From Candidatus Levyibacteriota bacterium (GTDB lineage: Bacteria > Patescibacteriota > Microgenomatia > Levybacterales > UBA12049), in contig DAIDHL010000003.1 of assembly GCA_027459745.1 (NCBI GenBank), positions 1,125 to 65,124 of the forward strand: 64,000 nt of DNA, in the 5' to 3' direction. Positions 26,983 through 42,653 of this stretch are shown here, one piece after another; the first letter of the stretch is position 1, and each line of letters opens with the position of its first letter. Position numbers and translations under genes: made by a program. The notes under the pieces are model-generated. The model had not been told where the DNA came from and searched no databases. It was given only the letters and a program-made list of their open reading frames with translations.

Positions 26983-27046
26983 CCCCCATAGTAGGGAAGG
27001 GCTGGGACTTCCAAGTCCCGGCTCGCCCTAACTTTGCTTCCCAATT

Positions 27047-27607
27047 ATGAGAAACAAGGTAAGTGTGTTTCTCATCGCAACCTTCCTCCTGGCGATGAGA
27101 TTCCCTCTAGAAGCATTCGCTTCAAATGACGCATCAGGCTCTTCTGCAACCCTCGCAATCGCAACTGTTTCAGCACAACAGGTTGTGGATTATCGTGGTC
27201 AAGCCCTAAAAAGCTATCTTGAGCTTAAAAACTCTCCTTTAGCCAGTGAGGCTGATTACATCATTCAGGAAGCTGACAAATATAATTTGGACTGGAAATT
27301 AGTCCCTTCTATTGCTGGTTTGGAATCAAGCTATTGTTTGGCAATCCCGATAAACTCATACAATTGCTACGGTTATGGCATCTATGGAAACAACGTGCGC
27401 TACTTCAATTCTTGGGAAGATGGTATTGCCACAGTTTCCGCTGCCTTAAAAACCAACTATATAGATAAAGGCGCCATAACGGTAGCTCAGATCGGCAGTA
27501 TATATGCTGCCTCACCTACCTGGGCAGTAAGAGTGGAAGCCAATATGAAAAATCTTCAGGACTACTCAACGACGTTTGAGACAGAATCCCTTCCAATTTC
27601 CCTCTAA
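27047..27607 (+). CDS. Secreted protein with lysozyme-like (Rpf/transglycosylase-like) motif; paralog 2
   Basis: AGLESSYC...NCYGYGIY. Signal peptide MRNKVSVFLIATFLLAM. Confidence 0.4.
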   Translation: MRNKVSVFLIATFLLAMRFPLEAFASNDASGSSATLAIATVSAQQVVDYRGQALKSYLELKNSPLASEADYIIQEADKYNLDWKLVPSIAGLESSYCLAIPINSYNCYGYGIYGNNVRYFNSWEDGIATVSAALKTNYIDKGAITVAQIGSIYAASPTWAVRVEANMKNLQDYSTTFETESLPISL

Positions 27608-27647
27608 TCATAGTATAATTCACCTATAAATAAGTGCGGCAGGCCAA

Positions 27648-27728
27648 GCGGACGTGGTGGAATGGTAGACACGCAAGGTTTAGGACCTTGTGCCGTAAGG
27701 CGTGGGGGTTCAACTCCCTTCGTCCGCA
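27648..27728 (+). tRNA. tRNA-Leu (anticodon TAG), type II
   Basis: Acceptor GCGGACG/CGTCCGC, anticodon stem-loop CAAGG-TTTAGGA-CCTTG, variable arm TGCCGTAAGGCGT. Confidence 0.8.
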
Positions 27729-27763
27729 CAAAACTTAAAAAGTAAACGCGTTTATATATATTT

Positions 27764-28612
27764 ATGGCTAATACAAAGACAGAAAAGAAATCAATTATTA
27801 AAAGAGAGGACAATGGTAATATAGTTCTAACAGTAGAAATCCCCTGGGAGACTGTCCAGAAGGCCCAGGATGCTGTAGTAGAGGGTTTGGTAAAGCATGC
27901 CAATATCCAAGGCTTTCGACCTGGCAAAGCACCTAAAAAGGTGGTATTAGAGCACACAGACTCTCAGAAGCTGCAAGAAGAAACTTTAAGAGAACTTTTA
28001 CCAGCTGCATATAGTGAAGCTATACGTGAACACGAGGTGCGTCCTATGTCCAATCCCCAAATCCATGTGGATAAACTAGAACATGGTAAAGCATGGATCT
28101 TTACAGCCACTACTTGTGAAATGCCTGAAGTTAAATTGGGCGACTATAAAGACAAAGTTAAAAGTCTAACTGCTAAAAGCAAAATAGCCGTGCCTGGTAA
28201 AGAGCAAAAAGAACCATCTTTTGATGAAATGATGGAAATAGTCACACAGACAGCAGAAGTCAAAATACCACAAATGCTAGTCGAACAAGAAGTAGATCGT
28301 TTTTTGGCTCAAACTTTGGATGAAATTAAGCGTTTGGGATTAACCTTAGAGCAATATCTATCTTCTACCAAAAAGACGCCTGAGCTGCTTAAACAGGAAT
28401 ATACAGCTAAGGCTACAAACGATATAAAGGTGGAATTGGTGCTACAAAAGATTTCGGAAGATGAGAACATCACGGTAGATGACAAAGAAATCGAAGAGGC
28501 AGTTAACAAGGCTAAATCCCCAGAAGAAAAGGCTTATTTGGAGCAAAATCGCTATATGCTAGCGAGTATCCTAAGACAACAAAAGACGCTTGATTTTTTG
28601 AAGAATCTATGA
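27764..28612 (+). CDS. tig: Trigger factor, short form lacking a PPIase domain
   Basis: N-terminal ribosome-binding domain with the GFRPGKAP signature. At 282 aa it is consistent with a minimal trigger factor. Confidence 0.65.
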   Translation: MANTKTEKKSIIKREDNGNIVLTVEIPWETVQKAQDAVVEGLVKHANIQGFRPGKAPKKVVLEHTDSQKLQEETLRELLPAAYSEAIREHEVRPMSNPQIHVDKLEHGKAWIFTATTCEMPEVKLGDYKDKVKSLTAKSKIAVPGKEQKEPSFDEMMEIVTQTAEVKIPQMLVEQEVDRFLAQTLDEIKRLGLTLEQYLSSTKKTPELLKQEYTAKATNDIKVELVLQKISEDENITVDDKEIEEAVNKAKSPEEKAYLEQNRYMLASILRQQKTLDFLKNL

Positions 28613-28628
28613 TACTCTCGGCCTTATC

Positions 28629-29312
28629 ATGGCTTCCAAGAAGAACAAACATCAAGTAAAGAATCCTCTGGAATTGGAAGAAAGCTCTTCTGATTCGATA
28701 TTACGCGGTTTAAGTGAAGAAACTAAACAATGGAGTAAGGGTTTTCTAGAACAGATTATAGGCTCAGAGGAAATTACTTCTCATCCCAAATCGGGTGATT
28801 TACAACCAGGTCAAGAATTGCACCTTGGCAAGAGTAAAGCTACCATCAAACAAGAAAATTCATGGACTGACTTTTTGTTTGGCAATGGCGGCGAACAATC
28901 AGCCAAAGAAGCAAAACATAAGAAAGAAGCTGCTCCTGGGATGGATTATCATCGCGAAATTGCGACTGTAGAGTCACGCATGCATGCCAAAGAAAAAGGA
29001 GAGCTCAAGCAAGCTATTCAGGAAATCCAGATGGAACTACAAAAGTTAGTTGCATCATCCAGTATGCTGCAAGTTGAATTTAGCCAAGTCAGTATGTCAC
29101 AAGCACCTAAAGACCCGGGTAAATACCACGTTAATTTCTTCCAGTGGGTATTGACTGTTATTAGACAGGCTCGCATGAAAGTAGAAGATGCTGGCGCATG
29201 GCAGGCAGCTATCAAAGGTAAAAAGAAAAACGGATTCTGGCAAAGAGCCAAAAACGAAGGTACAACTTTCTTATTGCATCATGACCGCAATGTGGCCACA
29301 CAGGCTGGATAA
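28629..29312 (+). CDS. Hypothetical protein
   Basis: 227-aa ORF with no recognisable motif. Confidence 0.4.
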   Translation: MASKKNKHQVKNPLELEESSSDSILRGLSEETKQWSKGFLEQIIGSEEITSHPKSGDLQPGQELHLGKSKATIKQENSWTDFLFGNGGEQSAKEAKHKKEAAPGMDYHREIATVESRMHAKEKGELKQAIQEIQMELQKLVASSSMLQVEFSQVSMSQAPKDPGKYHVNFFQWVLTVIRQARMKVEDAGAWQAAIKGKKKNGFWQRAKNEGTTFLLHHDRNVATQAG

Positions 29313-29326
29313 AATTAATTTAGTTC

Positions 29327-29356
29327 TTGCATTTTCAAATAAAATACGACTATAAT
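29327..29356 (+). promoter_or_regulatory. Promoter TTGCAT-18-TATAAT driving the ilv leader (leaderless)
   Basis: TATAAT at 29351-56 lies 6 nt before the leader ATG at 29363. Confidence 0.45.
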
Positions 29357-29362
29357 AATCAC

Positions 29363-29410
29363 ATGATAAGAAATCAAAACGTTATTATTGCTCTCATTAT
29401 TACCCGTTAA
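29363..29410 (+). CDS. ilv leader peptide MIRNQNVIIALIITR (15 aa; Ile/Val/Leu-rich)
   Basis: The run of cognate codons is GTT ATT ATT GCT CTC ATT ATT, and the stop sits 31 nt before an intrinsic terminator. Confidence 0.55.
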   Translation: MIRNQNVIIALIITR

Positions 29411-29441
29411 CGCGGTGTATTTGTGTTGAGCAAAACAAGTA

Positions 29442-29463
29442 CCCCGCCAAGCGGGGTTTTTTT
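29442..29463 (+). terminator. Attenuator terminator CCCCGC-CAA-GCGGGG + T7
   Basis: Perfect 6-bp GC stem followed by seven T residues, 12 nt upstream of the ilvB ATG. Confidence 0.6.
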
Positions 29464-29474
29464 ATGACAAAAAT

Positions 29475-31166
29475 ATGAAAAGCAAAAATATAAGCGGAGC
29501 CAAAGCAGTAATGGAATCTTTAATAGCCGAGCAGGTTGATACGATCTTTGGTTATCCAGGGGGAGCGATCATGCCAATTTATGATGCTTTATATGATTAT
29601 AAAGATCAGATCAAACATATTTTGGTCAGACATGAACAAGGTGCTGCCCATGCAGCTGAAGGATATGCCAGAACTAGTGGCAAAACAGGCGTATGCTTTG
29701 CCACATCTGGACCTGGAGCAACTAATCTCATTACCGGAATTGCCGACGCCATGCTCGATTCAGTTCCACTCGTGTGTATAACTGGTCAAGTTGCATCTCA
29801 TCTGGTAGGCACTGATGCGTTTCAGGAAGTTGACGTCATTGGTATAACCTCTTCTATAACCAAATGGAACTACCAAATTACCAAAAGGGAAGAAATTGAC
29901 TCGATCATCCACCAGGCCTTTAACATAGCTCAAAGCGGAAGGCCTGGACCGGTAGTAATCGACGTTACTAAAGATGCGCAGCTTAATTTGTTCTCCTATC
30001 AGGAAAAAAGGACAAAAAAATTTAATCACTCTAAAAAACGATTAAATAAAAGCACTTTGGACTCAATTGCGAGATTGATAAATCAAGCAGAGCGACCATT
30101 AATTCTGGCGGGTCATGGAATTTTAATTGCTAACGCGGAAACTGAACTAAAAAAATTTGTCGAAAAAACAGATATCCCTGTTGCTTGTACTTTACATGGT
30201 TTAACATCTATACCAGTTGATCATCCGAATTATGTGGGTATGCTGGGTATGCACGGCAATTATGCGCCCAATGTCTTAACCAATCAGGCAGATGTGATTA
30301 TAGCTATTGGCATGCGCTTTGATGATAGAGTCACTAGTGATACCCAAACTTACGCCAAACAAGCCAAAATTATACATATAGACATCGATGCCAGCGAATT
30401 TGATAAAAATGTAAAAACTAAACTAACTCTCCAAGCAGATGCTAAAGAGGCTCTAACAAACTTATTTCCGCTGATAAATAAAGCACAACACAGTGCTTGG
30501 TTGGAAAAATTTCGTCAACTTTATGACCAAGAGCACCTACAAGTTATAACTTCTGATATCAATCGACCGGATACCCAAACTGTCTCCATGGCTGAGGTTA
30601 TTCACCAACTGTCAGAAATTACCCAAGGTAATGCTATTATTGTGGCTGACGTGGGGCAGCATCAAATGGTCACTGCTAGATATTTTAAGCATACATACCC
30701 TAATCACTACTTAACATCAGGCGGTGCTGGCACAATGGGTTTTGCTTTACCGGCAGCAATAGGCGCGAAAGTAGCCAATCCTGACAAAGAAGTTATTGCA
30801 GTCATCGGAGATGGAAGTTTTCAAATGACACTACAGGAATTGGGAACGATTATGCAAGAAAATATTCCGGTAAAAATTATTATTCTTAACAATCATTACC
30901 TGGGTATGGTACGTCAGTGGCAGGAGTTATTCTTCACCAAACGTTATTCTTTTGTAAATATTGACAGTCCCGATTTCGTTGCTCTGGCGAAATCATATGG
31001 CATCATGGGCAATACAGTAATACACAAGTCTGATCTGAAAAAGTCACTGCAACTTCTATGGAAAAGTAAACAAGCTTATTTGCTAGAGGTAAAAGTGGTC
31101 AAAGAAACCAATGTTTTTCCTATGATACCAACAGGAGCAGCTGTCGATGAAATGCGTCTTGAATAA
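29475..31166 (+). CDS. ilvB: Acetolactate synthase large subunit (TPP enzyme)
   Basis: 563 aa with a TPP-binding fold. GDGSFQMTLQELGT near the C-terminus matches the GDG(x)24-27N region. Confidence 0.85.
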   Translation: MKSKNISGAKAVMESLIAEQVDTIFGYPGGAIMPIYDALYDYKDQIKHILVRHEQGAAHAAEGYARTSGKTGVCFATSGPGATNLITGIADAMLDSVPLVCITGQVASHLVGTDAFQEVDVIGITSSITKWNYQITKREEIDSIIHQAFNIAQSGRPGPVVIDVTKDAQLNLFSYQEKRTKKFNHSKKRLNKSTLDSIARLINQAERPLILAGHGILIANAETELKKFVEKTDIPVACTLHGLTSIPVDHPNYVGMLGMHGNYAPNVLTNQADVIIAIGMRFDDRVTSDTQTYAKQAKIIHIDIDASEFDKNVKTKLTLQADAKEALTNLFPLINKAQHSAWLEKFRQLYDQEHLQVITSDINRPDTQTVSMAEVIHQLSEITQGNAIIVADVGQHQMVTARYFKHTYPNHYLTSGGAGTMGFALPAAIGAKVANPDKEVIAVIGDGSFQMTLQELGTIMQENIPVKIIILNNHYLGMVRQWQELFFTKRYSFVNIDSPDFVALAKSYGIMGNTVIHKSDLKKSLQLLWKSKQAYLLEVKVVKETNVFPMIPTGAAVDEMRLE

Positions 31167-31169
31167 TCT

Positions 31170-31409
31170 ATGGAGAAAAAAATATTTACTATTACTATTG
31201 TTTCCCAAAATACACCTGGCGTTTTATACCGCATAGCGGGTATGTTTTTACGACGAAAAATTAATATCGAGTCATTGCATGTTAAAGCAACCTCACTTAA
31301 AACAAAAGCTAAATTTATTATAAAAGTCACTTCAAAGTTGGATATCGTAAAGGTTATGTGCAAACAAATGGAGAAAATCGTGGAAGTAGAGGAGGTTGTT
31401 TTGAAATGA
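31170..31409 (+). CDS. ilvN: Acetolactate synthase small subunit, minimal ACT-domain form
   Basis: IVSQNTPGVLYRIAGMFLRRKINIESLHV is an ACT domain. The ATGA overlap with ilvA suggests translational coupling. Confidence 0.65.
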   Translation: MEKKIFTITIVSQNTPGVLYRIAGMFLRRKINIESLHVKATSLKTKAKFIIKVTSKLDIVKVMCKQMEKIVEVEEVVLK

Positions 31410-32650
31410 CAATAACTATTCAACAAATCGACCAGGCAGCGAAAACTTTGGAGAAAGTTGTACAGCAAACACCATTACTGTATTCGAAACGTTTGTCTAA
31501 GCAGTATAAAGCCAATATCTACCTCAAGCGTGAAGACTTACAGGAGGTGCGCTCGTTTAAAATTCGCGGTGCATATAATAAGATCGCATCATTAACTGCT
31601 GATGAGAAGAGACGAGGAGTTGTTTGTGCCAGTGCAGGAAATCATGCGCAAGGTGTGGCTCTGGGATGTTTTCTGCAGAAAATAAAAGGGGTTATTTTTA
31701 TGCCCCGCGTTACGCCAAATCAAAAAATTGAAAAAGTAAAACAATTTGGCCAGAAGTATGTGGAGGTCAAATTGGTAGGCCAGACTTTTGATGATGCAAG
31801 TGCAGAATCGAAAATTTACACCCAACAGAATAATATGGTATACGTTCATCCTTTCGATGATCCTCTGGTTATTGCCGGACAGGGAACTGTAGGTAAAGAA
31901 ATTTTCGAACAATCCGCAGGTAATGTAGACATAGTTATTTCTCCTATCGGTGGGGGTGGTTTGACCTCGGGGATTTCCAGCTATCTAAAACAGAAAAATT
32001 CAAAAATAACAATCATCGGAACCGAACCCCAGGGGGCAGCCGGCATGCACTCTTCAGTAAGTAATGGCTCAGTGACATCATTGGAAACAATTGATACTTT
32101 TGTGGATGGCGCAGCAGTAAAAACTGTCGGGAATATGACTTTTGCCATATGCCAAAAATACGTTTCTAAAATCGTGACTATTCCTGAAGGTATGGACTGT
32201 ACGACCATGATAGAACTTTATCAAAAAGACGGCATCATCGCTGAACCCGCAGGAGCGTTAAGTATCTCGACTTTAGAAAAAATTAAAGATGAAATAAGAG
32301 GAAAAACTGTGGTTTGTGTGCTAAGTGGGGGAAACAATGATTTACTGCGCTATCCAGAAATTTTAGAACGAAGTCTGATCTATCTAGGCAGGAAGCATTA
32401 TTTCATCATCGAATTTGCCCAAAAGCCAGGTCAGTTACGTCAATTTGTAGACCAGGCGCTTGGCCCTACTGATGATATTGTGAGGTTTGAATATATTAAA
32501 AAAACAAACAAGGAAAAAGGTCCAGCTCTAGTGGGAGTAGAGTTACAAAACGCTAAAGATTACAATTCATTACTCAAACGTATGGATAAGATTGGTTTAC
32601 AATATAGAATTTTACAACAGGATGATTTACTGTATCAATATTTGGTATAA
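31406..32650 (+). CDS. ilvA: Threonine ammonia-lyase (biosynthetic-type, one C-terminal regulatory domain)
   Basis: PLP motif FKIRGAYNK. GNHAQGVA. A Gly-rich GGGG loop. SD GGAGG 10 nt upstream of the ATG at 31406. Confidence 0.8.
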   Translation: MTITIQQIDQAAKTLEKVVQQTPLLYSKRLSKQYKANIYLKREDLQEVRSFKIRGAYNKIASLTADEKRRGVVCASAGNHAQGVALGCFLQKIKGVIFMPRVTPNQKIEKVKQFGQKYVEVKLVGQTFDDASAESKIYTQQNNMVYVHPFDDPLVIAGQGTVGKEIFEQSAGNVDIVISPIGGGGLTSGISSYLKQKNSKITIIGTEPQGAAGMHSSVSNGSVTSLETIDTFVDGAAVKTVGNMTFAICQKYVSKIVTIPEGMDCTTMIELYQKDGIIAEPAGALSISTLEKIKDEIRGKTVVCVLSGGNNDLLRYPEILERSLIYLGRKHYFIIEFAQKPGQLRQFVDQALGPTDDIVRFEYIKKTNKEKGPALVGVELQNAKDYNSLLKRMDKIGLQYRILQQDDLLYQYLV

Positions 32651-32657
32651 ATAAGAT

Positions 32658-33038
32658 ATGCAACAGATTCAAACCAAGAAAGCACCTCAAGCCATTGGCC
32701 CTTACTCACAAGCTATCATGTTGGAAAATGGAACCATATATTGCTCAGGACAAATAGGGTTGAACCCACAAACCGGAGAATTAGCTTCGGGAATAGAGGC
32801 ACAAACCAAACAAATTATGCAAAATATTCAAGCTCTACTGGAAGAGTTAGGTTATTCACTGGAAAATATCTGCAAAACCACTATCTTCTTGACTGATATG
32901 AACGACTTTACAAAAGTGAATGAAATTTATGGCTCATTTTTCTCTACACACAAACCTGCCCGGTCAACCGTAGGGGTGGCTCAGTTACCAAAACATGCAT
33001 TAGTAGAAATCGAAGTGATTGCCTATAATAAAATTTGA
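32658..33038 (+). CDS. ridA: RidA (YjgF/TdcF) enamine/imine deaminase
   Basis: 126 aa. It begins APQAIGPYSQA and ends ARSTVGVAQLPKHALVEIEVIA. Confidence 0.75.
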   Translation: MQQIQTKKAPQAIGPYSQAIMLENGTIYCSGQIGLNPQTGELASGIEAQTKQIMQNIQALLEELGYSLENICKTTIFLTDMNDFTKVNEIYGSFFSTHKPARSTVGVAQLPKHALVEIEVIAYNKI

Positions 33039-33064
33039 CAGTATGGTATATATTTTTGTAAAAT
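33035..33064 (+). promoter_or_regulatory. Promoter TTGACA-18-TAAAAT driving second leader peptide (leaderless)
   Basis: TTGACA at 33035-40. The -10 element ends 7 nt before the leader ATG at 33072. Confidence 0.4.
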
Positions 33065-33071
33065 ACAAAAT

Positions 33072-33122
33072 ATGATAAATAGAACTCAAGTTGTTGTTGC
33101 TCTCCTTCTTATCCGTTCTTAG
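33072..33122 (+). CDS. Branched-chain-type leader peptide MINRTQVVVALLLIRS (16 aa)
   Basis: Codon run GTT GTT GTT GCT CTC CTT CTT ATC. The stop TAG overlaps a GCGGG element. Confidence 0.5.
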   Translation: MINRTQVVVALLLIRS

Positions 33123-33160
33123 CGGGTTAGATTTGGTGCAATAAACACACAAAATCATAT

Positions 33161-33181
33161 CCCGCGAAAGCGGGTTTTTTT
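33161..33181 (+). terminator. Attenuator terminator CCCGC-GAAA-GCGGG + T7
   Basis: GNRA-type loop. An upstream GCGGG copy at 33122-26 could form an antiterminator with CCCGC. Confidence 0.55.
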
Positions 33182-33826
33182 ATGGTAAATTTAGCAGAGA
33201 TAGAACCATCAATAAGATCATTTTCTACACCTTCAATAACTGAAGGAGGATTAGTAGTACCTCAAGCATTACCTATTCATGCTAGAGATAGATCGTTCTC
33301 AGATTTACGCAGAGTCCGATTTATAGACGCTGTAGATGAGGATCGTGGATACCCAATCTTAAAATACCTACCTCATTCTTCACAGCCAGTAATGTTTGGG
33401 ATACCACGAGGAGATCAACCAATCTATGGTGGAATATTGCGTAACATGGATCGTCATAATGTTGCATTATATGCACTAAACAAACAAATGGGTGGAGCAG
33501 AAAGAATAAGAACATATCTACGAGGATATTATGAAGTTAATAGACAAAAAAATGACCATTCGCGTCACATGGTTATCTTTGAAATGCATCCAGATGAGAA
33601 AGGCAAATTTGATCCAAAGGACTTACAGCCGGAAGAGTGGGGTTTTTTTGACCCTAACCAATATTTAACACAACAAAATATTCAAAGTATTATGTCTGCT
33701 GCAGCTGCTGATACATTAAGAGTTCAATATAGTAGAATATCTACGACAGCGTTTGAACAAAAAGCTCTTCAAGCCGAAAGAGCAGCTCGCAAGAAACATT
33801 CTTATTATGATCATCAAAGTGACTAA
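33182..33826 (+). CDS. Hypothetical protein (start uncertain; the ATG immediately follows the terminator T-run)
   Basis: 214-aa ORF with no recognisable motif. Confidence 0.4.
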   Translation: MVNLAEIEPSIRSFSTPSITEGGLVVPQALPIHARDRSFSDLRRVRFIDAVDEDRGYPILKYLPHSSQPVMFGIPRGDQPIYGGILRNMDRHNVALYALNKQMGGAERIRTYLRGYYEVNRQKNDHSRHMVIFEMHPDEKGKFDPKDLQPEEWGFFDPNQYLTQQNIQSIMSAAAADTLRVQYSRISTTAFEQKALQAERAARKKHSYYDHQSD

Positions 33827-34075
33827 AGATCTGTGCAGGAATTTTAGTTTTGTATTATAATCTGCCCATGGAAAGAAGACCTTTCTCAGTTTATATACAC
33901 TCCACTCCCAAGACGGAAGTGTTGAGTAGCAGTTTGGAATATGCTGATAAGCAACCAGATCCTCATTCATCTATCAGTATTTTTGTCAAAGAAAGAAGAT
34001 TAAATAGCCAACCAAGAGGACTCCGAGCAGCTGTACTTAGAAGAAGATTAAAAACACAAAATAAAAAGTAGAGTG

Positions 34076-34149
34076 TGGGCCCTACAGGGCTCGAACCTGT
34101 GACCTTTACAATGTCAATGTAACGCTCTAGCCAACTGAGCTAAGAGCCC
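34076..34149 (-). tRNA. tRNA-Val (anticodon GAC)
   Basis: Acceptor GGGCTCT/AGGGCCC, D arm GCTC-AGTTGGCTA-GAGC, anticodon stem-loop TTACA-TTGACAT-TGTAA, T loop TTCGAGC. Confidence 0.8.
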
Positions 34150-34194
34150 AAACTGACTCCAATTATAGCATAAAATTTCTCACACTCAGTAGAA

Positions 34195-35400
34195 CTATTT
34201 ATTTACAAATAAAATAGCATTGGGAATATTGCGGCCAGGTCCTAATTTATAACCTCCATACCAAAGAGCAGTAGATCCACCTTCGTCTAAATTAAGTGCA
34301 TTATTCATACCCATCGCTTTCATTACATTCGCACTATCTTGCATCGTCGCGCCTAAGACATCGCCGATATAAATGGTACTACCAATATTTGCGATAAAAC
34401 CCCGTGTACCAACGCTATTATACTTTCCATCCCCGCTGCCTCCATAGACAATTTGATTATTTAGAACTAACAACGGCTGCATCGCCAAGACCATATCTGG
34501 ACTAGTATCACGACCCCATTGCTCAGAAGCGGATACAAAACGCACATTAGTTCCGGAAATAATTACAGCAGGGACTATGCTATATACATTATTAGCAGAG
34601 TTGAAATAAGTTTTATTTTTATTCATTAATAAAGTATCAAATGATCCTGTTTTACCTGCACAGCTGGGATAATCTGCTGGACAAAAAAATGTACCATTTA
34701 TGCCCGCCCATGCACCGTTACGCGAAACATAATCTGACAGAGGTAGTACAGGACAATTATTACCACAATCAGAGCCAGAAGCAGTATCGACAATTATGCG
34801 GGTCGAATTTAAATCAGCAGCAATAATATCGACTAAAAAAATTCCATTGCTAGTGCTAACATACTGCTGATTAAAACCATTCTTGGGAGGTATGTTTGAT
34901 GTGGTCGCATTGGCAGGTGCTAAACTACCTCCTGGTGTGCTCATTGCTGCAATCGTGTCTTGTGCTTGGGTAATTTGTGATTTTAAGACGCTTAAACTTG
35001 CCGATGCTGATGCGTAGTTCATTTCTCCCAAATCACTCACAGTCGTAACATACAGTGGAATCAATTTATCAATTTTTTGATTTTGATCCTGTAGATCCAG
35101 CATATCTTGATAAGCACTGATTGAAGATTTATAAGTTGATTGAATATTTTTTTCTAGATTCTCTAACGCTTGATTACGTTTATATTGATCCTGGTTTTTT
35201 AATGCTAAATAATTTTTATCAAGTATAGCTAAATTAATTGACAAAGCTGAAGTCTGTTGTTGTTGAGAAACTAAAGAATCATCAGTAAAAAAAATATAGA
35301 TCAAAAGAGCAATACATGATAATAACAGAATTACAATTATTATCCCTTCTTCGACCGGCAACCAAGTGATAAATTTTTTATAAATCCTTTTTATGTACAT
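34195..35400 (-). CDS. Phosphodiester glycosidase family protein (DUF2233/NAGPA-like), membrane-anchored with coiled coil
   Basis: C-terminal NALNLDEGGSTALWYGG resembles the NAGPA-domain signature. N-terminal TM and a Q-rich coiled coil. Confidence 0.5.
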   Translation of the reverse strand: MYIKRIYKKFITWLPVEEGIIIVILLLSCIALLIYIFFTDDSLVSQQQQTSALSINLAILDKNYLALKNQDQYKRNQALENLEKNIQSTYKSSISAYQDMLDLQDQNQKIDKLIPLYVTTVSDLGEMNYASASASLSVLKSQITQAQDTIAAMSTPGGSLAPANATTSNIPPKNGFNQQYVSTSNGIFLVDIIAADLNSTRIIVDTASGSDCGNNCPVLPLSDYVSRNGAWAGINGTFFCPADYPSCAGKTGSFDTLLMNKNKTYFNSANNVYSIVPAVIISGTNVRFVSASEQWGRDTSPDMVLAMQPLLVLNNQIVYGGSGDGKYNSVGTRGFIANIGSTIYIGDVLGATMQDSANVMKAMGMNNALNLDEGGSTALWYGGYKLGPGRNIPNAILFVNK

Positions 35401-35461
35401 AAAATAATGTTAGCATGAAGACTCTTGCAATTAAAAGCTTTATTATCTAAAATTTTATCTC

Positions 35462-35863
35462 ATGTCCAAAGCGTTTGTTGATAATCTAATCCACAATATG
35501 AAACTCGCCGGAGTTATAACCAAAGTCACACCTTGGTCAGTTGAGGGATTCGGAGATAAAGCTCTCAATGTCCGATATCTGGGAATTAAACTCCCCGAAG
35601 ACTGGCAGGAAATTTTTTCCGATAAAAATAATTTGTTATTAAAATTTGTGATTGATCGCTCAACTGCGGTGGTTGAATTTTATCTGGCCAACAAACCACC
35701 CTTTGTAAAAATAATTACACGTGATTTTAATGACGGCGATAAATGGGAGAATGTCTTGGGTGAAGTGAAGAATAGATTAAAACGTGACAAAGCAGATTTT
35801 CAAAATCACAATGAACAAGTAGGAAATATTTATAGCCGAATAAATGCTGCGCTCAAGAAGTAA
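35462..35863 (+). CDS. Hypothetical protein
   Basis: 133-aa ORF. Confidence 0.4.
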   Translation: MSKAFVDNLIHNMKLAGVITKVTPWSVEGFGDKALNVRYLGIKLPEDWQEIFSDKNNLLLKFVIDRSTAVVEFYLANKPPFVKIITRDFNDGDKWENVLGEVKNRLKRDKADFQNHNEQVGNIYSRINAALKK

Positions 35864-35888
35864 GAATTATATTTAGTTTTAAATAGAC

Positions 35889-36185
35889 TTAGTCACTATT
35901 TACCACACCTACGTAATCAATTTTTGGGAAGCGCATCCTAATTTCTTTCCAAAAATTTTCAGATAGACTCTGTGAGAATTTACCATATTTACCTGACTCA
36001 GTTTTGGAGCATAGCATATTTTCCCAGCGTTGAATGATACGCACGGCTTTTTGTCCAATTTGATTAAATTCTTCTTGAAATACCTGTGGTTCATCGACGT
36101 ATTTAGCGTGAATCAGCGAGAAGGATTCAAATAATTCCTTGTTCGCCTCAAGCATGTCCAAAACTTGTTGTTTGTACTTAACCAT
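35889..36185 (-). CDS. Hypothetical protein
   Basis: 98-aa ORF. Confidence 0.35.
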   Translation of the reverse strand: MVKYKQQVLDMLEANKELFESFSLIHAKYVDEPQVFQEEFNQIGQKAVRIIQRWENMLCSKTESGKYGKFSQSLSENFWKEIRMRFPKIDYVGVVNSD

Positions 36186-36249
36186 AAAGATCTATGCTAA
36201 TAAAATAAACACTTTTCGTCAAGATATATTTGGTGTTATACTATTTTCC

Positions 36250-36840
36250 ATGACTCACGAACAGGCATATATACTACTGACTAAATATTTAAAAAACAAG
36301 AATCTAATCAAGCATTGCCGATCTTGTGAAGTCGCCATGCAAGCTTTGTGCAAACACTTACACCCCGATGCAACAGAAGAAGAAATACAAACCTGGGGCA
36401 TCACTGGACTATTACATGATGTTGATTATGAGATAGCCCAAGAAAAAAATATGTTGGATAAACACGGCTTGTTAATTTTTGATAAAACCCTCATCGGTAT
36501 TGAAGAGACTACTTTTCCTGAGAGAATTAAACATGCTATTCAAGCCCACAATTATGAGCATACGCAAGTTATGCCAGCCAGTGATTTAGATTGGGGAATA
36601 GCCTGTATAGATCAGCTAACTGGCCTAATCATTGCTGCTGCTTTGGTACGACCTGATAAACAACTAAGTTCGGTAGACACAACAACCGTTTTAAAAAGAT
36701 TTAAAGAAAAAAGTTTTGCCAAAGGTGCGAGTAGAGAGTCTATCCAAAATTGTGAAGAAAAACTCGGCATTCCACTTGATCAGTTTATTACTATTACTCT
36801 GCAAGCCATGCAGGAAATCCACCAAGAATTAGGTTTATAA
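36250..36840 (+). CDS. HD-domain phosphohydrolase family protein
   Basis: H...HD pattern (CKHLH ... GLLHDVDYE). TGTTATACT extended -10 lies 7 nt before the ATG at 36250 (leaderless). Confidence 0.5.
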   Translation: MTHEQAYILLTKYLKNKNLIKHCRSCEVAMQALCKHLHPDATEEEIQTWGITGLLHDVDYEIAQEKNMLDKHGLLIFDKTLIGIEETTFPERIKHAIQAHNYEHTQVMPASDLDWGIACIDQLTGLIIAAALVRPDKQLSSVDTTTVLKRFKEKSFAKGASRESIQNCEEKLGIPLDQFITITLQAMQEIHQELGL

Positions 36841-36955
36841 GCTCCAAAGTTTAAATTATATATCTCAGAAAACTTGGAAAACTCAGTTAATCAGTCTGAT
36901 AACCTTACTGGGCTGATTCTCTGAGTGTCCTGAAAATTGTGATTAATTTGAGGAT

Positions 36956-37447
36956 CTATGGTCTTACAATGTGCCAGACGCCACCGACGCCATCACCATT
37001 TATATCACCAGGTTTTTTATCCTGAATATAGTAGTACAAAGGCATACCTTTCCAAGCAAATTGTTTGGAACCATCACTGCGTGTAATCACGGAGATGTTG
37101 GCAGGAAAAGTCTTCTGCGCGGTCGCGCCCGATGTATAAATCGGCCAGACAGCCAAACATTGTCCTGCACAATTACTTACACCATTATTATCCTTACTAT
37201 AGGTATAAAGTGTATTCCCAGCAAAATCAGTCAAATATTGTCCTTTGGTTTTGTCTGTTTTAATCAAATAAATGTTGTCCGAAGGAACCATGGCAGTAGT
37301 TGTTTTATTTGAAGTCACCGTAGTATTCATCATAACCGGAGTGGGCTGGGACATACCCAACATAGCTTTAAGCTGATGTCTCTCGAAATAACCACCAATT
37401 GCAGCTAATACAATTATTACTATTACTATCCACAACCATGTTTTCAT
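36956..37447 (-). CDS. Secreted lipoprotein-like protein with COG4315 (PF03640) repeats
   Basis: Two copies of the pattern Y..D..G.TLY.Y..D...S.C.G.C...WP and G.PLYYY..D..PGD..GDGV..VWH.V. Confidence 0.5.
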   Translation of the reverse strand: MKTWLWIVIVIIVLAAIGGYFERHQLKAMLGMSQPTPVMMNTTVTSNKTTTAMVPSDNIYLIKTDKTKGQYLTDFAGNTLYTYSKDNNGVSNCAGQCLAVWPIYTSGATAQKTFPANISVITRSDGSKQFAWKGMPLYYYIQDKKPGDINGDGVGGVWHIVRP

Positions 37448-37504
37448 ATACTAATGTGAGAATAATCACTTTTTAATTCGTTGTCAATATCTAAATAACA
37501 AATA

Positions 37505-38023
37505 CTAAAATTTCCTACTATCATAGGCCCAGTGCAATAGGGCTTGTCTTTGAACAGGACGGCACAAGAGATCCTCTGGACGGCAATTTTTATTTATTTG
37601 TGCAATATGTCGTCGCATATTCTTCCATCTTTTAACTTGCCTAAGATCTTCACTTGGGATACGTCTACCCATGTAATAGCGACAATACCACTGAAACCAA
37701 CCCCTAGGATCATCCCTATAAATCCATCCCTTATTTTGCCAAATCTTTAGTGGCTGACTGGCATTTACTTTAAAATAATTCAATTGTGCATCATGAAACT
37801 CGTGATTTAACTTAGCGTATTCAAACCAATCAGAAGGAAATTCTGTAAGACAATCTGTCATGTATTTACCACCAAAGACACCCATTCGTAGCATCTCTTT
37901 AGGAGTAAGATCAGGTTTAAATTCAGAAGCAAAGTTTTTACCAACTGGCTCAATCAGAAAGTAGGTATAGTTTTTCTGCATTAAGTCATTTACCACTACT
38001 TTTCTCATCGATTCATCACCCAC
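37505..38023 (-). CDS. Hypothetical protein
   Basis: 172-aa Trp/Arg-rich ORF (RGWFQWYCRYYMGRR). No family assigned. Confidence 0.4.
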   Translation of the reverse strand: MGDESMRKVVVNDLMQKNYTYFLIEPVGKNFASEFKPDLTPKEMLRMGVFGGKYMTDCLTEFPSDWFEYAKLNHEFHDAQLNYFKVNASQPLKIWQNKGWIYRDDPRGWFQWYCRYYMGRRIPSEDLRQVKRWKNMRRHIAQINKNCRPEDLLCRPVQRQALLHWAYDSRKF

Positions 38024-38499
38024 ACACTATAGTTTAAATAACCAGCAAACGTCACCCATAACAAGTACGGTATTAAGATATAACCCGCAGCTTTTGAAAT
38101 TCTAGCAAATATTAACATGCACGCCAAGATAGTCATCCATAAAACACCCATTTCCCATAAAGCAAAAAATGGCTGTTGCCAACCAAAAAAAATCACCGAC
38201 CAAAAGAAATTTAACACTAATTGCAGAACGAACATTTGTATACCCAGTAATTTGGTCACTGCTAACCTGCCCTGATTTTTTTTATTCCACACCAAAAATA
38301 GTGCAATTCCCATTAGAAAATATAACGTTGTCCACACGGGTCCAAATACCCACGCTGGGGGATTTAAACTGGCTTTATGTAATCCTGCATACCAAGTAGG
38401 GATAGCTGTAAGTGTAAACGGGATGCTTAACAATCCAACTGACTCACAAATAACAATAGCACCAAGTACTTTGCTTATAAACTTGAAATTTAACTTCAT
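38005..38499 (-). CDS. TspO/MBR (tryptophan-rich sensory protein) family
   Basis: NPPAWVFGPVWTTLYFLMGIALFLVW, with 5 TM segments. Confidence 0.7.
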   Translation of the reverse strand: MKLNFKFISKVLGAIVICESVGLLSIPFTLTAIPTWYAGLHKASLNPPAWVFGPVWTTLYFLMGIALFLVWNKKNQGRLAVTKLLGIQMFVLQLVLNFFWSVIFFGWQQPFFALWEMGVLWMTILACMLIFARISKAAGYILIPYLLWVTFAGYLNYSVWVMNR

Positions 38500-38582
38500 T
38501 ATTTTCAGTATGTATCAGTACATTAAGTATGTCAATAAATAATAAAACAGATTAAGAGAGCGACTTTTTAAGTTTACAAAAC

Positions 38583-38650
38583 AATATCTGGCAACATTTG
38601 GCAATATCTGGTAATATTCGGTAATATCTGGCAATCTTTCGACAATTTCA
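38583..38650. repeat. Tandem array of ~6 degenerate 10-11-bp units (consensus ATATCTGGCA) in the promoter region of the second Fic gene
   Basis: The units read aatatctggca / acatttggca / atatctggta / atattcggta / atatctggca / atctttcgaca, i.e. helical phasing at about 10.5 bp. Confidence 0.5.
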
Positions 38651-38672
38651 GGACTATAGTTTAAATAATAAT

Positions 38673-39671
38673 ATGGATATACCTCCACTATTTCAAATCA
38701 CCAACAACATGTTAACCACTATTGCCCAAATAGAAGGATTGCGATCCTCATTGGAGATTACTCGAGTTCCTGATCTTATATTATCCCATTTACGTTCTGA
38801 AAGTTTGCTCAAAAGTTCTGTTTTTTCAGCTCAGATCGAAGGCAATACATTATCCGTTCAAGATATTCAAAATAGAGAATCAGAAAAAAATGAAACTGAT
38901 TACCAGCATCAAGAAGTTGAAAATATTATTAATGCTTTATCACTAATGCGAGAAAATGAACTTCCGCAAATTATTGATTTGGACTTCATATTAACATTAC
39001 ATAAACAAGTCATGCATAACTTGGTACATTCATCTCAAGCCGGAAAATTAAGACGGGAACCTAGTGCTATTTTTGATCAATCAGGCAATGTCGTTTATAT
39101 GACACCTCCTCCTTCACAATTAGAACCGCTGCTTTCAGATCTACTGCGTTTGATTAATCAATCTGATAATATCTTTCCTCTGATTAAAATTGCGCTTGTG
39201 CATCTCTGTTTTGAAAAAATTCATCCTTTCTTAGATGGCAATGGTAGGGTAGGTAGATTGATTATTCAAGCTTTGCTCGCCAAACATAATTATCATTTTC
39301 AGTGGTTACTTTCCATTGAAGAAGGCTTACAAGAGAAAAAACAAACCTATTATGTTTTGCTTGATAGAAATGATGCCAGTGAATTTATCGAATTCTTTTT
39401 GTCTGTGATTTTAGATGAAGCGGAAAAGTTAAAAGCTAATTTAAGTAATATTAACAATCCACAACCGCAAGATTTTCTTTTACCTCGGAGGAAAGAGATT
39501 TTAAATATTATTACAGAGCAAAATATAGTGTCTTTTGATCAATTACACCGTAGATTTTTAAAAATTCCTGATCGTACTCTGCGTTATGATCTACAACAGT
39601 TAGAAAAGGCTGGCTTTATACAAAAAGTCGGCACGACCAGAGGAGCAATGTATCAAGTTATCAAACATTAA
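38673..39671 (+). CDS. Fic family protein (class II) with C-terminal wHTH
   Basis: HPFLDGNGRVGRLI Fic motif. The N-terminal inhibitory motif is SAQIEGN. Confidence 0.8.
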   Translation: MDIPPLFQITNNMLTTIAQIEGLRSSLEITRVPDLILSHLRSESLLKSSVFSAQIEGNTLSVQDIQNRESEKNETDYQHQEVENIINALSLMRENELPQIIDLDFILTLHKQVMHNLVHSSQAGKLRREPSAIFDQSGNVVYMTPPPSQLEPLLSDLLRLINQSDNIFPLIKIALVHLCFEKIHPFLDGNGRVGRLIIQALLAKHNYHFQWLLSIEEGLQEKKQTYYVLLDRNDASEFIEFFLSVILDEAEKLKANLSNINNPQPQDFLLPRRKEILNIITEQNIVSFDQLHRRFLKIPDRTLRYDLQQLEKAGFIQKVGTTRGAMYQVIKH

Positions 39672-39740
39672 GTATTATTTGACAAAGCTATTATGTTTTG
39701 TTAGCATAAACCAACTATGTGCAAACTACTTAATATTTTT

Positions 39741-39767
39741 ATGACCGGTACAACTACCTCTGTTTAG
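39741..39767 (+). CDS. Thr-rich leader peptide MTGTTTSV (8 aa)
   Basis: ATG ACC GGT ACA ACT ACC TCT GTT TAG. The stop overlaps GCGGGG (39767-72). A TTGACA hexamer lies at 39678. Confidence 0.45.
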   Translation: MTGTTTSV

Positions 39768-39794
39768 CGGGGTTGTATTGATGTGCAATAGATA

Positions 39795-39816
39795 CCCCGC
39801 AAAGCGGGGTTTTTTT
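39795..39816 (+). terminator. Attenuator terminator CCCCGC-AAA-GCGGGG + T7
   Basis: Perfect 6-bp stem and a T7 run. The upstream GCGGGG copy supports an antiterminator alternative. Confidence 0.55.
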
Positions 39817-39847
39817 ATGGTTTGATACCTAAAGAAAGGAGGAAAAA

Positions 39848-42652: not shown

Positions 42653-42653
42653 T

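What the first reader, a model, noticed from the sequence alone, without database searches (positions are those of the whole stretch)
33035..33826. Second branched-chain-type attenuator (MINRTQVVVALLLIRS) controlling a gene of unknown function
The same module lies directly downstream of ridA, with three Val, three Leu and two Ile codons. The putative downstream CDS (214 aa, no recognisable domain) would start at the ATG immediately abutting the terminator T-run. The leader stop codon TAG overlaps the GCGGG antiterminator half. If real, this places an uncharacterised protein in the Ile/Leu/Val-responsive regulon; it might be a missing branched-chain amino-acid pathway or transport function.
Basis: inference. 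Interest (0 to 1): 0.65.

Follow-up and report, generated by a model that had tools for sequence, protein, structure and literature searches.

The report
Leucine-sensing attenuator driving an orphan gene
Just after the ridA gene of an uncultured Levyibacteriota-like (CPR) bacterium lies a real, conserved switch of a classical kind that senses leucine/valine shortage, but the 214-residue protein it controls is a lineage-restricted orphan, not a recognisable amino-acid pathway or transport component.

Summary
At 33035-33181 there is a promoter, a 16-codon leader ORF (MINRTQVVVALLLIRS), a stop codon overlapping GCGGG, a CCCGC-GAAA-GCGGG terminator and a T7 run. The ATG that abuts the T-run opens a 214-aa ORF.

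The module is not fortuitous. It is 85% identical in a sister genome whose synonymous sites are near saturation. Homologous modules follow ridA in three other genomes. All keep a CTY-coded Leu-Leu-Leu run, a TTGACA/TAnAAT promoter and a segment beside the stop codon that pairs with the terminator's 5' arm. Constrained folding gives the classical alternatives: stalling at Val/Leu codons gives an antiterminator, a ribosome at the stop gives the terminator.

The 214-aa ORF is a real gene (dN/dS about 0.12). It has one homologue among 15 billion proteins, no domain, no membrane segment and no usable structure model. Two other genomes carry unrelated orphan ORFs behind the same module.

So this is a new member of a known regulatory class, Leu-centred, driving a Leu-poor orphan. 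The "missing BCAA pathway or transport function" idea is unsupported.

The window also holds Ile-, Thr- and Phe-type modules of the same design.

The parts
33035..33064 (+). Sigma-70-type promoter of module 2: TTGACA, 18 nt, TAAAAT. The -35 box overlaps the ridA stop codon.
   Evidence: Best promoter match in 27000-36000 (11/12). TTGACA plus TAAAAT/TACAAT/TATAAT with a 17-18-nt spacer is kept in L001, L082 and L003, while the spacer sequence differs.
33072..33122 (+). Leader ORF MINRTQVVVALLLIRS*. Regulatory codons are GTT GTT GTT (Val) and CTC CTT CTT (Leu). It starts 7 nt after the -10 box, so it is probably translated from a leaderless or nearly leaderless mRNA (inference).
   Evidence: Orthologous leaders: MTNLNQVLVALLLIRF* (L001), MRNRTLQSIIALLLIR* (L082), MQKVVSLTLNLLLNRSGYVVGGLHK* (L003). 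CTC and CTT are minor Leu codons here (5% and 16%, against TTA at 37%).
33089..33150 (+). Approximate extent, read from the dot-bracket fold, of the segment-1:2 hairpin. Leader codons (GUUGUUGUUGC, AUCCGUU) pair with AGCGGGU and UGCAAUAAAC downstream of the stop. This structure forms in free RNA.
   Evidence: MFE fold: 1:2 hairpin plus terminator, -28.8 to -30.8 kcal/mol, z = -3.1 against shuffles.
33122..33165 (+). Antiterminator. GCGGG (33122-33126) plus UUAGAUU pair with AAUCAUA plus CCCGC (33161-33165), which is the terminator's 5' arm.
   Evidence: Constrained folding. With the ribosome placed at Val or Leu codons, the antiterminator replaces the terminator (-23.6 and -15.7 kcal/mol). With the ribosome at the stop codon, GCGGG is covered and the terminator forms. 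In L003 segments 2, 3 and 4 changed together to GTGGGAGG / CCTCCCAC / GGGAGG.
33161..33181 (+). Intrinsic terminator CCCGC GAAA GCGGG followed by T7.
   Evidence: Identical in L001 and L082.
33182..33826 (+). orf214: a soluble, Leu-poor, Arg-rich orphan protein of 214 aa whose start codon abuts the terminator T-run.
   Evidence: 79-80% identical ortholog P0002 in DAIDHK010000008.1, at the same position. pN 0.11 against pS 0.56. No other homologue. No family, PDB or usable fold. Leu 6.5% against 10.6% background. GC3 0.20 against 0.33-0.36 in the neighbouring trigger factor-to-ridA genes (0.27 for the NAGPA gene just downstream). No TM segment.
29327..29463 (+). Module 1, the paralogous Ile-centred attenuator of ilvBN-ilvA-ridA. 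It has promoter TTGCAT/TATAAT, leader MIRNQNVIIALIITR* (29363-29410) and terminator 29442-29456 plus T7. A 4-codon mini-ORF follows, whose TGA overlaps the ilvB ATG at 29475.

Best explanation
Module 2 is a ribosome-mediated (leader-peptide) transcription attenuator with its own promoter.

Proposed mechanism:
- Transcription starts a few bases before the leader AUG.
- A ribosome translates the 16-codon leader.
- When Leu-tRNA (CUY codons, read by tRNA-Leu GAG) and Val-tRNA are charged, the ribosome reaches the UAG and covers the adjacent GCGGG. CCCGC-GAAA-GCGGG-U7 then forms and transcription stops.
- When Leu or Val is scarce, the ribosome stalls on GUU GUU GUU or CUC CUU CUU. This frees GCGGG-UUAGAUU to pair with the terminator's 5' arm, and polymerase reads through.
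- The read-through RNA is translated from the AUG that directly follows the U-run, giving orf214.

The module also sits where ilvBN-ilvA-ridA transcripts end. It therefore doubles as that operon's terminator and as a second gate for read-through from upstream.

It is a paralogue of the ilvB leader module, recoded from Ile-Ile to Leu-Leu-Leu. It occupies the place where relatives with a complete ilv-leu cluster have Leu leaders in front of leuC or leuA.

orf214 is a lineage-specific soluble protein made under Leu/Val limitation. Its biochemical role is unknown. Its being a BCAA enzyme or carrier is unsupported and unlikely.

What is shown and what is inferred:
- Shown: the sequence anatomy, the conservation, the alternative pairings in silico, and purifying selection on orf214.
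- Inferred: the transcription start, the response to tRNA charging, and expression of orf214.
For: - Anatomy at exact coordinates.
- Module 2 is 85% identical between the window and L001. Synonymous sites of flanking genes differ at 73-79% of sites.
- Homologous modules lie directly after ridA in L001, L082 and L003. Promoter boxes, the LLL run in CTY codons and the stop-adjacent complement of the terminator arm are all conserved.
- In L003, segments 2, 3 and 4 switched together from GCGGG/CCCGC/GCGGG to GGGAGG/CCTCCC/GGGAGG.
- Constrained folds give the antiterminator on stalling and the terminator with the ribosome at the stop.
- The free RNA folds better than shuffles, z = -3.1.
- Across 36 ILV-type modules from relatives, the region around the leader stop holds a perfect complement of the terminator's 5' arm. 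The median length is 6 nt against 3.55 nt in shuffles, and 21 of 36 are individually at 0.05 or below.
- Eight modules from four genomes align over their whole length.
- orf214: pN 0.11 against pS 0.56, and syntenic in L001.
- Its Leu content is lower than in all 22 reference genes of the window. The unrelated ORFs behind the same module in L082 and L003 have 1 Leu in 81 and 1 in 57 residues.
- Leu leaders precede leuC or leuA in L005, L014, L037 and L042.
Against: - There are no expression data of any kind.
- In L001, the simple footprint model with the ribosome on the Leu codons still predicts the terminator. The antiterminator appears only for stalls at the V-L-V codons.
- In L003, the same simple model did not yield the antiterminator as the MFE structure.
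- The core antiterminator in the window is only 5 perfect base pairs, reached by 6% of shuffles on its own.
- RNAalifold found almost no covariation among these few close sequences.
- There is no Shine-Dalgarno sequence before either the leader AUG or the orf214 AUG.
- The gene behind the module is not conserved among the four genomes. The module's selected function may therefore not lie in that gene.
- orf214 has atypical codon composition (GC3 0.20), so it may be a recent arrival.
Confidence: 0.75

Rival explanations
1. The conserved product is the module itself. The short attenuated leader RNA, or the leader peptide, would act in trans, as described for the rnTrpL RNA and the peTrpL peptide of Sinorhizobium meliloti. 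Whatever ORF lies downstream would be an incidental passenger.
For: The module is conserved in four genomes, but the ORF behind it is not: orf214, orf81 and orf57 show no similarity to each other. Homology between the window and L082 stops at the ATG after the T-run. The module has its own promoter. Trans-acting attenuator RNAs and leader peptides are documented (PMC6614838 and PMC7298713, listed).
Against: orf214 is under purifying selection and has kept its start at the T-run ATG in both genomes. All three unrelated downstream ORFs are Leu-poor, as expected if they are made when Leu is scarce. No target complementarity was sought or found.
Confidence: 0.12
2. orf214 is an unrecognised enzyme or carrier of branched-chain amino-acid metabolism. 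It might, for example, compensate for the ilvC/ilvD/ilvE/leuABCD genes that are absent from this locus.
For: It is under a Leu/Val-sensing attenuator next to ilvBN-ilvA-ridA. The window, L001, L003 and L082 lack ilvC, ilvD, ilvE and leuABCD near the operon, whereas most relatives have them there. The conserved core is His-rich (HSSQP, DRH, DHSRH, EMHPDE), which could bind a metal. This last point is reading of the sequence only.
Against: It has no membrane segment (maximum hydropathy 0.74). It has no family, PDB or fold match. It is found in only two genomes. L082 and L003 have the same reduced operon and the same module but lack it. Its GC3 of 0.20 suggests a foreign or young gene. The rest of the genome could not be searched, so the pathway genes may simply lie elsewhere.
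Confidence: 0.05
3. The element is just the terminator of the ilv operon, and the upstream small ORF is fortuitous.
For: It does lie at the 3' end of ridA, and it must terminate ilv transcripts. On its own, the GCGGG/CCCGC antiterminator core is short.
Against: The leader ORF, its LLL run, the promoter boxes and the stop-adjacent antiterminator are kept in four genomes across saturated synonymous divergence. The chance of such a uORF is about 1e-3 per site. The module aligns end to end with the bona fide ilvB leader.
Confidence: 0.03

Closest known systems
Escherichia coli leu operon leader (leuL) and the ilvBN / ilvGMEDA leaders: classical ribosome-mediated attenuators. This comparison rests on established knowledge. 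Theory is in PMC1183508.
   Same: A short leader ORF with a run of Leu (or Ile/Val/Leu) codons that uses minor codons. An intrinsic terminator before the first structural gene. A mutually exclusive antiterminator whose 5' half sits at the leader stop. A 1:2 hairpin in the untranslated RNA.
   Different: There is no sequence or Rfam-level relationship. The leader AUG lies 7 nt from the -10 box with no SD, so it is probably leaderless. The structural gene's AUG abuts the U-run. The regulated gene is an orphan, not a biosynthetic enzyme. The host is a CPR (Levyibacteriota-like) bacterium.
Leu-rich attenuator peptide of the Staphylococcus aureus ilv-leu operon (PMC5794164) and the conserved uORF of Corynebacterium ilvBNC (PMC10272879; Actinobacteria survey PMC1262725)
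   Same: These are leader-peptide control of BCAA genes outside the Proteobacteria. The signal is Leu-rich or ILV-rich.
   Different: Those leaders precede the biosynthetic operon. This one follows ridA at the operon's end, has its own promoter and drives an unrelated orphan. No homology was tested beyond Rfam.
Leu leaders in front of leuC or leuA in related Microgenomates genomes: L042 MNTHINSLLLNLG*, L005 MSSIFLNYLLLKSS*, L037 MNKYFALLNLALLTV*, L014 MHLLLN*
   Same: Same clade. Same position relative to ridA or ilvC within the ilv-leu cluster. An LLL core, a GC-rich terminator plus T-run, and often an ATG right after the T-run.
   Different: There the downstream genes are leuCDB or leuA. In the window's clade those genes are absent from the locus. 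In sequence, the window's module resembles its own ilvB leader more than it resembles these. Descent from them is therefore not established.
Sinorhizobium meliloti trpL attenuator giving rnTrpL / peTrpL (PMC6614838, PMC7298713)
   Same: An attenuator unit whose conservation need not depend on the gene downstream.
   Different: No trans target is known here. The amino acid and the phylum differ.

Membership tests
Ribosome-mediated (leader-peptide) transcription attenuators | Short translatable ORF with clustered codons for the sensed amino acid(s) | tested here: met
   16 codons, with 7 of 8 consecutive residues I/L/V (VVVALLLI). The LLL run is conserved in four genomes. About 1e-3 by chance.
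Ribosome-mediated (leader-peptide) transcription attenuators | Intrinsic terminator between the leader ORF and the structural gene | tested here: met
   CCCGC GAAA GCGGG plus T7 at 33161-33181.
Ribosome-mediated (leader-peptide) transcription attenuators | Antiterminator mutually exclusive with the terminator. Its 5' half is placed so that a ribosome at the leader stop blocks it and a ribosome stalled at the regulatory codons does not. | tested here: met
   GCGGG overlaps the TAG. Constrained folds switch as expected in the window. There is a concerted change of segments 2, 3 and 4 in L003. Family-wide enrichment of the complement next to the stop. Caveat: the simple model is borderline for L001 and L003.
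Ribosome-mediated (leader-peptide) transcription attenuators | Promoter upstream of the leader | tested here: met
   TTGACA-18-TAAAAT, 11/12, conserved in four genomes. The transcription start itself was not observed.
Ribosome-mediated (leader-peptide) transcription attenuators | Read-through rises when the cognate tRNA is uncharged | not testable with these tools
   This needs transcript mapping or reporter assays under Leu/Val limitation.
Rfam leader families (Leu_leader, Thr_leader, Trp_leader RF00513, Phe_leader RF01859 and others) and T-box | Score at or above the family's gathering threshold | tested here: not met
   No hit at gathering threshold in the window apart from tRNAs. In the E-value search of 29000-43300, module 2 gives only Trp_leader at 20.1 bits (threshold 41, E = 4).
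Any described protein family, for orf214 | Significant match to a Pfam, NCBIfam, PHROGs or PADLOC profile, to a PDB sequence, or a confident fold | tested here: not met
   Searches found nothing. The best hits were FGase at E = 0.043 and DC-SIGNR at E = 0.15, which are noise. The AlphaFold2 model has mean pLDDT 35, so no fold search was run.
   The maximum 19-residue Kyte-Doolittle hydropathy is 0.74. No hydrophobic N-terminus.

The most novel reading that the evidence does not exclude
This Levyibacteriota-like clade would use one modular attenuator cassette: a leaderless uORF, a stop-adjacent antiterminator and a U7-AUG restart. The cassette would have been duplicated and recoded for Ile, Leu, Thr and Phe, and it would repeatedly capture fast-evolving orphan genes purged of the sensed amino acid. 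Under this reading, orf214 would be a new amino-acid-starvation effector of an episymbiont, for example one acting on nutrient acquisition from the host, rather than a housekeeping enzyme.
Probability: 0.15. Interest if true: 0.7.

Novelty: new member of a known kind. Interest (0 to 1): 0.4.

Why it matters
Leader-peptide attenuation is textbook biology in Proteobacteria, Firmicutes and Actinobacteria. My library searches found no paper that discusses it for the Candidate Phyla Radiation. These are uncultured, reduced-genome organisms whose regulation is almost unknown.

Here the mechanism can be read directly from sequence, and it gives a free functional label to an otherwise opaque orphan gene: "made when Leu/Val runs short". 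It also gives similar labels to several small ORFs lying between Thr or Phe leaders and thrS or pheST.

The label is useful for interpreting metatranscriptomes of CPR bacteria and for choosing orphan proteins to study. It does not reveal a missing step of branched-chain amino-acid metabolism.

Tried and rejected
- **Homologue searches for orf214.** I ran the word-indexed search of 5.8 billion clusters, exhaustive HMMER over 1.84 billion representatives and a degenerate-pattern scan of JGI metagenome contigs. Only the sister-genome ortholog was found.
- **Family and structure libraries.** Pfam down to E = 10, NCBIfam, PHROGs, PADLOC and a PDB profile search gave nothing credible.
- **AlphaFold2 with the two-sequence alignment.** Mean pLDDT was 35. 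No fold search was run because the matches would be meaningless.
- **Exact look-up of P0001's contig.** It is not on record.
- **Similarity between the downstream ORFs.** I compared orf214 with the ORFs behind the same module in L082 (orf81) and L003 (orf57), and with window orf73. There was no similarity. orf81 is itself an orphan.
- **A possible remnant after the orf214 stop.** I suspected that the sequence there (GTGCAGG...TTATAAT) was a remnant of the hairpin and promoter that precede tRNA-Val in L082 and L003. MAFFT and blastn-short did not support this, so I dropped it.
- **A possible internal start.** The SD-like GAAGGAGG inside codons 21-23 of orf214 could have marked the true start. 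I rejected this because no start codon follows it in the window (TTA, GTA), although L001 has TTG and GTG there.
- **RNAalifold on eight modules.** It gave almost no covariation. The sequences are too few and too close, and loops of 3 and 4 nt misalign.
- **Regulation of tRNA-Val(GAC) by the module.** I considered this because the tRNA gene is downstream on the same strand in L082 and L003. I rejected it as a general explanation because in the window the tRNA gene is on the opposite strand.
Full report
**1. What is in the sequence**

The region 27.6-34.2 kb reads, all on the + strand except the last item:
- tRNA-Leu(tag);
- trigger factor;
- a DUF5660 protein;
- module 1;
- ilvB-type acetolactate synthase large subunit (29475-31166);
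- ACT small subunit (31170-31409);
- ilvA (about 31409-32650);
- ridA (32658-33038);
- module 2;
- a 214-aa ORF (33182-33826);
- tRNA-Val(gac) on the minus strand (34075-34149).

The parts of module 2 were verified by exact string search:
- -35 box TTGACA, 33035-33040. The ridA stop TGA at 33036-33038 lies inside it.
- -10 box TAAAAT, 33059-33064.
- Leader ATG at 33072.
- Leader MINRTQVVVALLLIRS, ending in TAG at 33120-33122.
- GCGGG, 33122-33126.
- Terminator CCCGC GAAA GCGGG, 33161-33174.
- T7, 33175-33181.
- ATG at 33182.

The promoter is the best sigma-70 match in 9 kb (11/12). The only adjustment is that the leader spans 33072-33122.

**2. Is it more than chance?**

A small ATG ORF with at least 7 of 8 consecutive I/L/V residues, suitably placed, occurs in about 0.1% of random 130-mers. 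A strict scan for perfect GC-rich hairpins followed by a T-run found only four such terminators in the whole window. All four are on the + strand, and each is preceded by a short ORF rich in one kind of amino acid.

The stronger argument is comparative.

The only homologue of the 214-aa protein (P0002, 79-80% identity) lies on contig DAIDHK010000008.1. This is a MAG labelled Candidatus Levyibacteriota, and the gene order is the same. There the module reads TTGACA-18-TAAAAT, then leader MTNLNQVLVALLLIRF*, TAG-CGGG, the identical terminator, and T7-ATG.

The 147-nt module is 85% identical between the two genomes. Synonymous sites of trigger factor, DUF5660 and ridA differ at 73-79% of sites, which is essentially saturated. 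The non-coding module is therefore under strong purifying selection.

**3. More distant copies**

I anchored scans on ilvA. This found two further genomes with the same reduced operon (trigger factor, DUF5660, module 1, ilvBN, ilvA, ridA) and a module right after ridA.

- L082 (JGI contig Ga0207667_10003851, ilvA 74%): TTGACA-17-TACAAT, leader MRNRTLQSIIALLLIR*, TAA-CGCGGGTA, TACCCGC GAAA GCGGG, T7-ATG.
- L003 (CAZAIV010000121.1, ilvA 77%): TTGACA-18-TATAAT, leader MQKVVSLTLNLLLNRSGYVVGGLHK*, terminator CCTCCC ACAC GGGAGG, T7-ATG.

The features invariant in all four are:
- the promoter boxes;
- a -10 box only 7-9 nt before the leader ATG;
- a Leu-Leu-Leu run written in CTY codons;
- a segment beside or within the end of the leader ORF that can pair with the terminator's 5' arm.

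In L003 the terminator arms changed to CCTCCC/GGGAGG. The upstream partner changed with them, to GTGGGAGG. This is a concerted three-segment change of the kind the attenuator model requires.

Val and Ile codons are not invariant (VVV, VLV, SII, LTL). In contrast, the ilvB leaders of the same four genomes keep Ile-Ile after the Leu...ALIITR...ALIITR...ALIILR...VLIILR. Module 2 is thus the Leu-centred paralogue and module 1 the Ile-centred one.

CTC and CTT make up 5% and 16% of Leu codons in this window's genes, against 37% for TTA. A tRNA-Leu(gag) gene lies at 22854-22937.

**4. Mechanism in silico**

The free RNA folds into two structures (-28.8 to -30.8 kcal/mol, z = -3.1). One is a hairpin between the regulatory codons and the segment after the stop (1:2). 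The other is the terminator (3:4).

I then blocked everything up to 12 nt beyond an A-site placed at different codons.
- At the Val codons, a two-tier antiterminator forms (-23.6 kcal/mol) and abolishes the terminator.
- At the Leu codons, the GCGGG-UUAGAUU / AAUCAUA-CCCGC antiterminator forms (-15.7 kcal/mol).
- At the stop codon, GCGGG is covered and the terminator returns.

This is the classical logic. There are caveats. For L001 the Leu-codon stall is borderline and the terminator is still the MFE structure. For L003 the simple model does not return the antiterminator as MFE, although an 8-bp GUGGGAGG/CCUCCCAC pairing is available.

I also tested 36 ILV-type modules from the fetched loci. 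The 37 nt around the leader stop contain a perfect complement of the terminator's 5' arm with median length 6 nt, against 3.55 nt in shuffles. Of the 36, 21 are individually at 0.05 or below. Placement of the antiterminator half beside the stop codon is therefore a family trait.

Eight modules align over their full length: modules 1 and 2 from the window, L001 and L082, module 1 from L003, and the window's Thr leader. This points to one cassette that has been duplicated and recoded. RNAalifold adds almost no covariation on so few close sequences.

Rfam has no family that reaches threshold. Module 2 gives only Trp_leader at 20 bits, E = 4.

**5. The 214-aa ORF**

It is a real gene. Against the L001 ortholog, pN is 0.11 and pS is 0.56, so dN/dS is about 0.12. 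Residues 40-120 are almost invariant, and the N-terminal roughly 35 residues are variable.

The ATG at 33182 is the only canonical start upstream of the conserved part. In L082 and L003 the ilvB coding sequence itself begins at the ATG that abuts the T-run. In module 1 of the window and of L001, that ATG opens a four-codon mini-ORF whose TGA overlaps the ilvB ATG. A start right after the U-tract is therefore normal usage in this clade.

Otherwise the protein is opaque:
- It has one homologue among about 15 billion proteins, and none in JGI contigs.
- It has no Pfam, NCBIfam, PHROGs, PADLOC or PDB match.
- The AlphaFold2 model has pLDDT 35.
- It has no hydrophobic segment.
- It is Arg-, Pro-, Asp-, His- and Tyr-rich.
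- Its ILV content is 17.8% against 25.5% background.
- Its Leu content is 6.5% against 10.6%. This is lower than in all 22 reference genes and has P = 0.03.
- Its GC3 is 0.20, against 0.33-0.36 in the neighbouring trigger factor-to-ridA genes (0.27 for the NAGPA gene just downstream), which hints at a foreign or young gene.

In L001/L002 the next gene is an integrase/transposase-like ORF at the contig end. This identification is weak.

**6. The gene behind the module is not conserved**

In L082 the T7-ATG opens MERR*, and an SD-led 81-aa ORF follows. In L003 it opens a 20-codon ORF followed by an SD-led 57-aa ORF. In both, tRNA-Val(GAC) comes next on the same strand.

orf214, orf81 and orf57 show no similarity to one another. 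orf81 is itself an orphan. DNA homology between the window and L082 stops at the ATG after the T-run and resumes at the inverted tRNA-Val and the NAGPA gene.

All three ORFs are Leu-poor: 14 of 214, 1 of 81 and 1 of 57 residues. This fits translation under Leu shortage. It argues that the coupling to the attenuator is functional rather than accidental. It also argues against any of them being a conserved pathway component.

**7. Origin**

Most related Microgenomates-type genomes carry a full ilv-leu supercluster. These are labelled Roizmanbacteria, Levyibacteriota or Patescibacteria, and many are labelled "uncultured Gammaproteobacteria". An example is L037: trigger factor, DUF5660, leader, ilvB, ilvN, ilvC, ilvA, ilvD, ridA, ilvE, Leu leader, permease, leuA, leuC, leuD, leuB.

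Leu leaders precede leuC or leuA in L005, L014, L037 and L042. In L042 the Leu leader sits directly between ridA and leuC.

The window (64 kb), L001, L003 and L082 have none of ilvC, ilvD, ilvE or leuABCD at the locus. Two origins are compatible with this:
- Module 2 is the surviving leu-operon leader after loss or relocation of leuCDB.
- Module 2 is a duplicate of module 1, recoded to Leu.

The window, L001 and L082 copies resemble module 1 closely in sequence. L003's copy looks more like the LLLN-type leu leaders. I cannot decide between the two origins.

**8. Verdict**

The attenuator is real, and the class is well known: the E. coli leu, ilvBN and ilvGMEDA leaders, the S. aureus Leu-rich attenuator peptide (PMC5794164), and the Corynebacterium ilvBNC uORF (PMC10272879). 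This one is a new member of that class in a CPR lineage. My library searches found no such description for that lineage.

Its target is an orphan protein that can now be labelled "induced by Leu/Val limitation". The hypothesis that it supplies a missing BCAA pathway or transport step is not supported.

The main rival is that the module's own RNA or peptide is the selected product, and that the downstream ORFs are passengers. It cannot be excluded without expression data.

Noticed in passing
window 39679-39816, then 39848-40087 and 40074-41924: A Thr-type module of the same design. It has promoter TTGACA at 39679 and leader MCKLLNIFMTGTTTSV* (39717-39767; the inner ATG gives MTGTTTSV*). The stop TAG overlaps CGGGG, and the terminator CCCCGC AAA GCGGGG (39795-39809) is followed by T7 and ATG. 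Downstream lie an SD-led 79-aa orphan ORF containing no Thr at all (P = 0.006), then thrS, infC and rplT. A leader-peptide attenuator in front of thrS is unusual.
   Followed up: partly
window 43017-43140, then 43171-43473, 43507-43923, 44012-45160, 45339-46373, 46488-48503: A Phe-type leader MNSRINNSFWFYFTSPTGRLVSA* plus terminator CCTCCC GAAA GGGAGG, right after rplT. It gives a sub-threshold Rfam Phe_leader hit (31.3 bits, E = 0.067). This echoes E. coli thrS-infC-rpmI-rplT-pheM-pheST. It is followed by two orphan ORFs (100 and 138 aa) with 1 and 0 Phe, an aminotransferase, pheS and pheT. L020 has a Phe leader, then a 121-aa Phe-free ORF that by eye shares a short motif with orf100 (tblastn at E <= 0.01 found no hit), then pheS and pheT.
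   Followed up: partly
window 33182-33826, 39848-40087, 43171-43923; L082 8821-9066; L003 4053-4226; L020 15341-15706: The first ORF after each attenuator is an orphan depleted in the sensed amino acid. The Leu modules have 6.5%, 1.2% and 1.8% Leu against 10.6% background. The Thr module has 0% Thr. The Phe modules have 1%, 0% and 0% Phe. This may reflect selection for translatability during starvation, or a role in keeping read-through transcripts covered by ribosomes.
   Followed up: partly
window 29464-29478; 33175-33184; 39810-39824; L082 5063-5075 and 8794-8812; L003 262-273 and 3982-4055: The T-run of these terminators is very often followed directly by ATG. That ATG either starts the structural gene (orf214; ilvB in L082 and L003) or opens a mini-ORF that ends at or overlaps the real start (MTKI* and MRKI* overlap the ilvB ATG as ATGA; also MV*, MERR* and a 20-codon ORF). 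No Shine-Dalgarno precedes it. This suggests U-tract-dependent initiation and re-initiation.
   Followed up: partly
window 33059-33074, 29351-29365, 39702-39719; the same in L001, L003, L082: The leader ATG lies only 6-9 nt downstream of the -10 hexamer in every module examined, and there is no SD. The leader peptides are probably translated from leaderless or near-leaderless transcripts.
   Followed up: no
window 29475-33038, compared with L004-L042, L083-L142: The ilv operon here is reduced to ilvB, ilvN, ilvA and ridA. ilvC, ilvD, ilvE and leuABCD are absent from the 64-kb window and from the syntenic loci L001, L003 and L082. Most relatives have them interleaved in one supercluster. Whether the pathway is completed elsewhere in the genome could not be checked.
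   Followed up: partly
window 27764-28612: The trigger factor is only 282 aa. It has the N-terminal and C-terminal domains but no PPIase domain between them. It is followed in several relatives by a DUF5660 protein.
   Followed up: no
window 33182-33826: Synonymous divergence of orf214 from its L001 ortholog is lower than in neighbouring genes (pS 0.56 against 0.73-0.79). It falls to 0.31-0.35 in the last 55 codons. GC3 is 0.20. The cause is unexplained. It could be extra constraint on the mRNA or a different history of the gene.
   Followed up: no
window 34075-34149, compared with L082 about 9155-9229 and L003 about 4445-4520: tRNA-Val(GAC) lies downstream of module 2 in all three lineages, but it is inverted in the window. 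In L082 and L003 it is preceded by a conserved hairpin (CCTGCACGAGGAC...CGTGCAGG) and a TTATAAT box. The window's 33850-34071 ORF (73 aa) has no homologue and may not be a gene.
   Followed up: partly
L003, L007-L020, L037, L042 and others (record titles): Many MAGs whose records are titled 'uncultured Gammaproteobacteria bacterium' carry CPR-type synteny (trigger factor, DUF5660, ilv leader). Their ilvA proteins are among the window's closest relatives, alongside those of records labelled Roizmanbacteria/Levyibacteriota. The labels look wrong.
   Followed up: no
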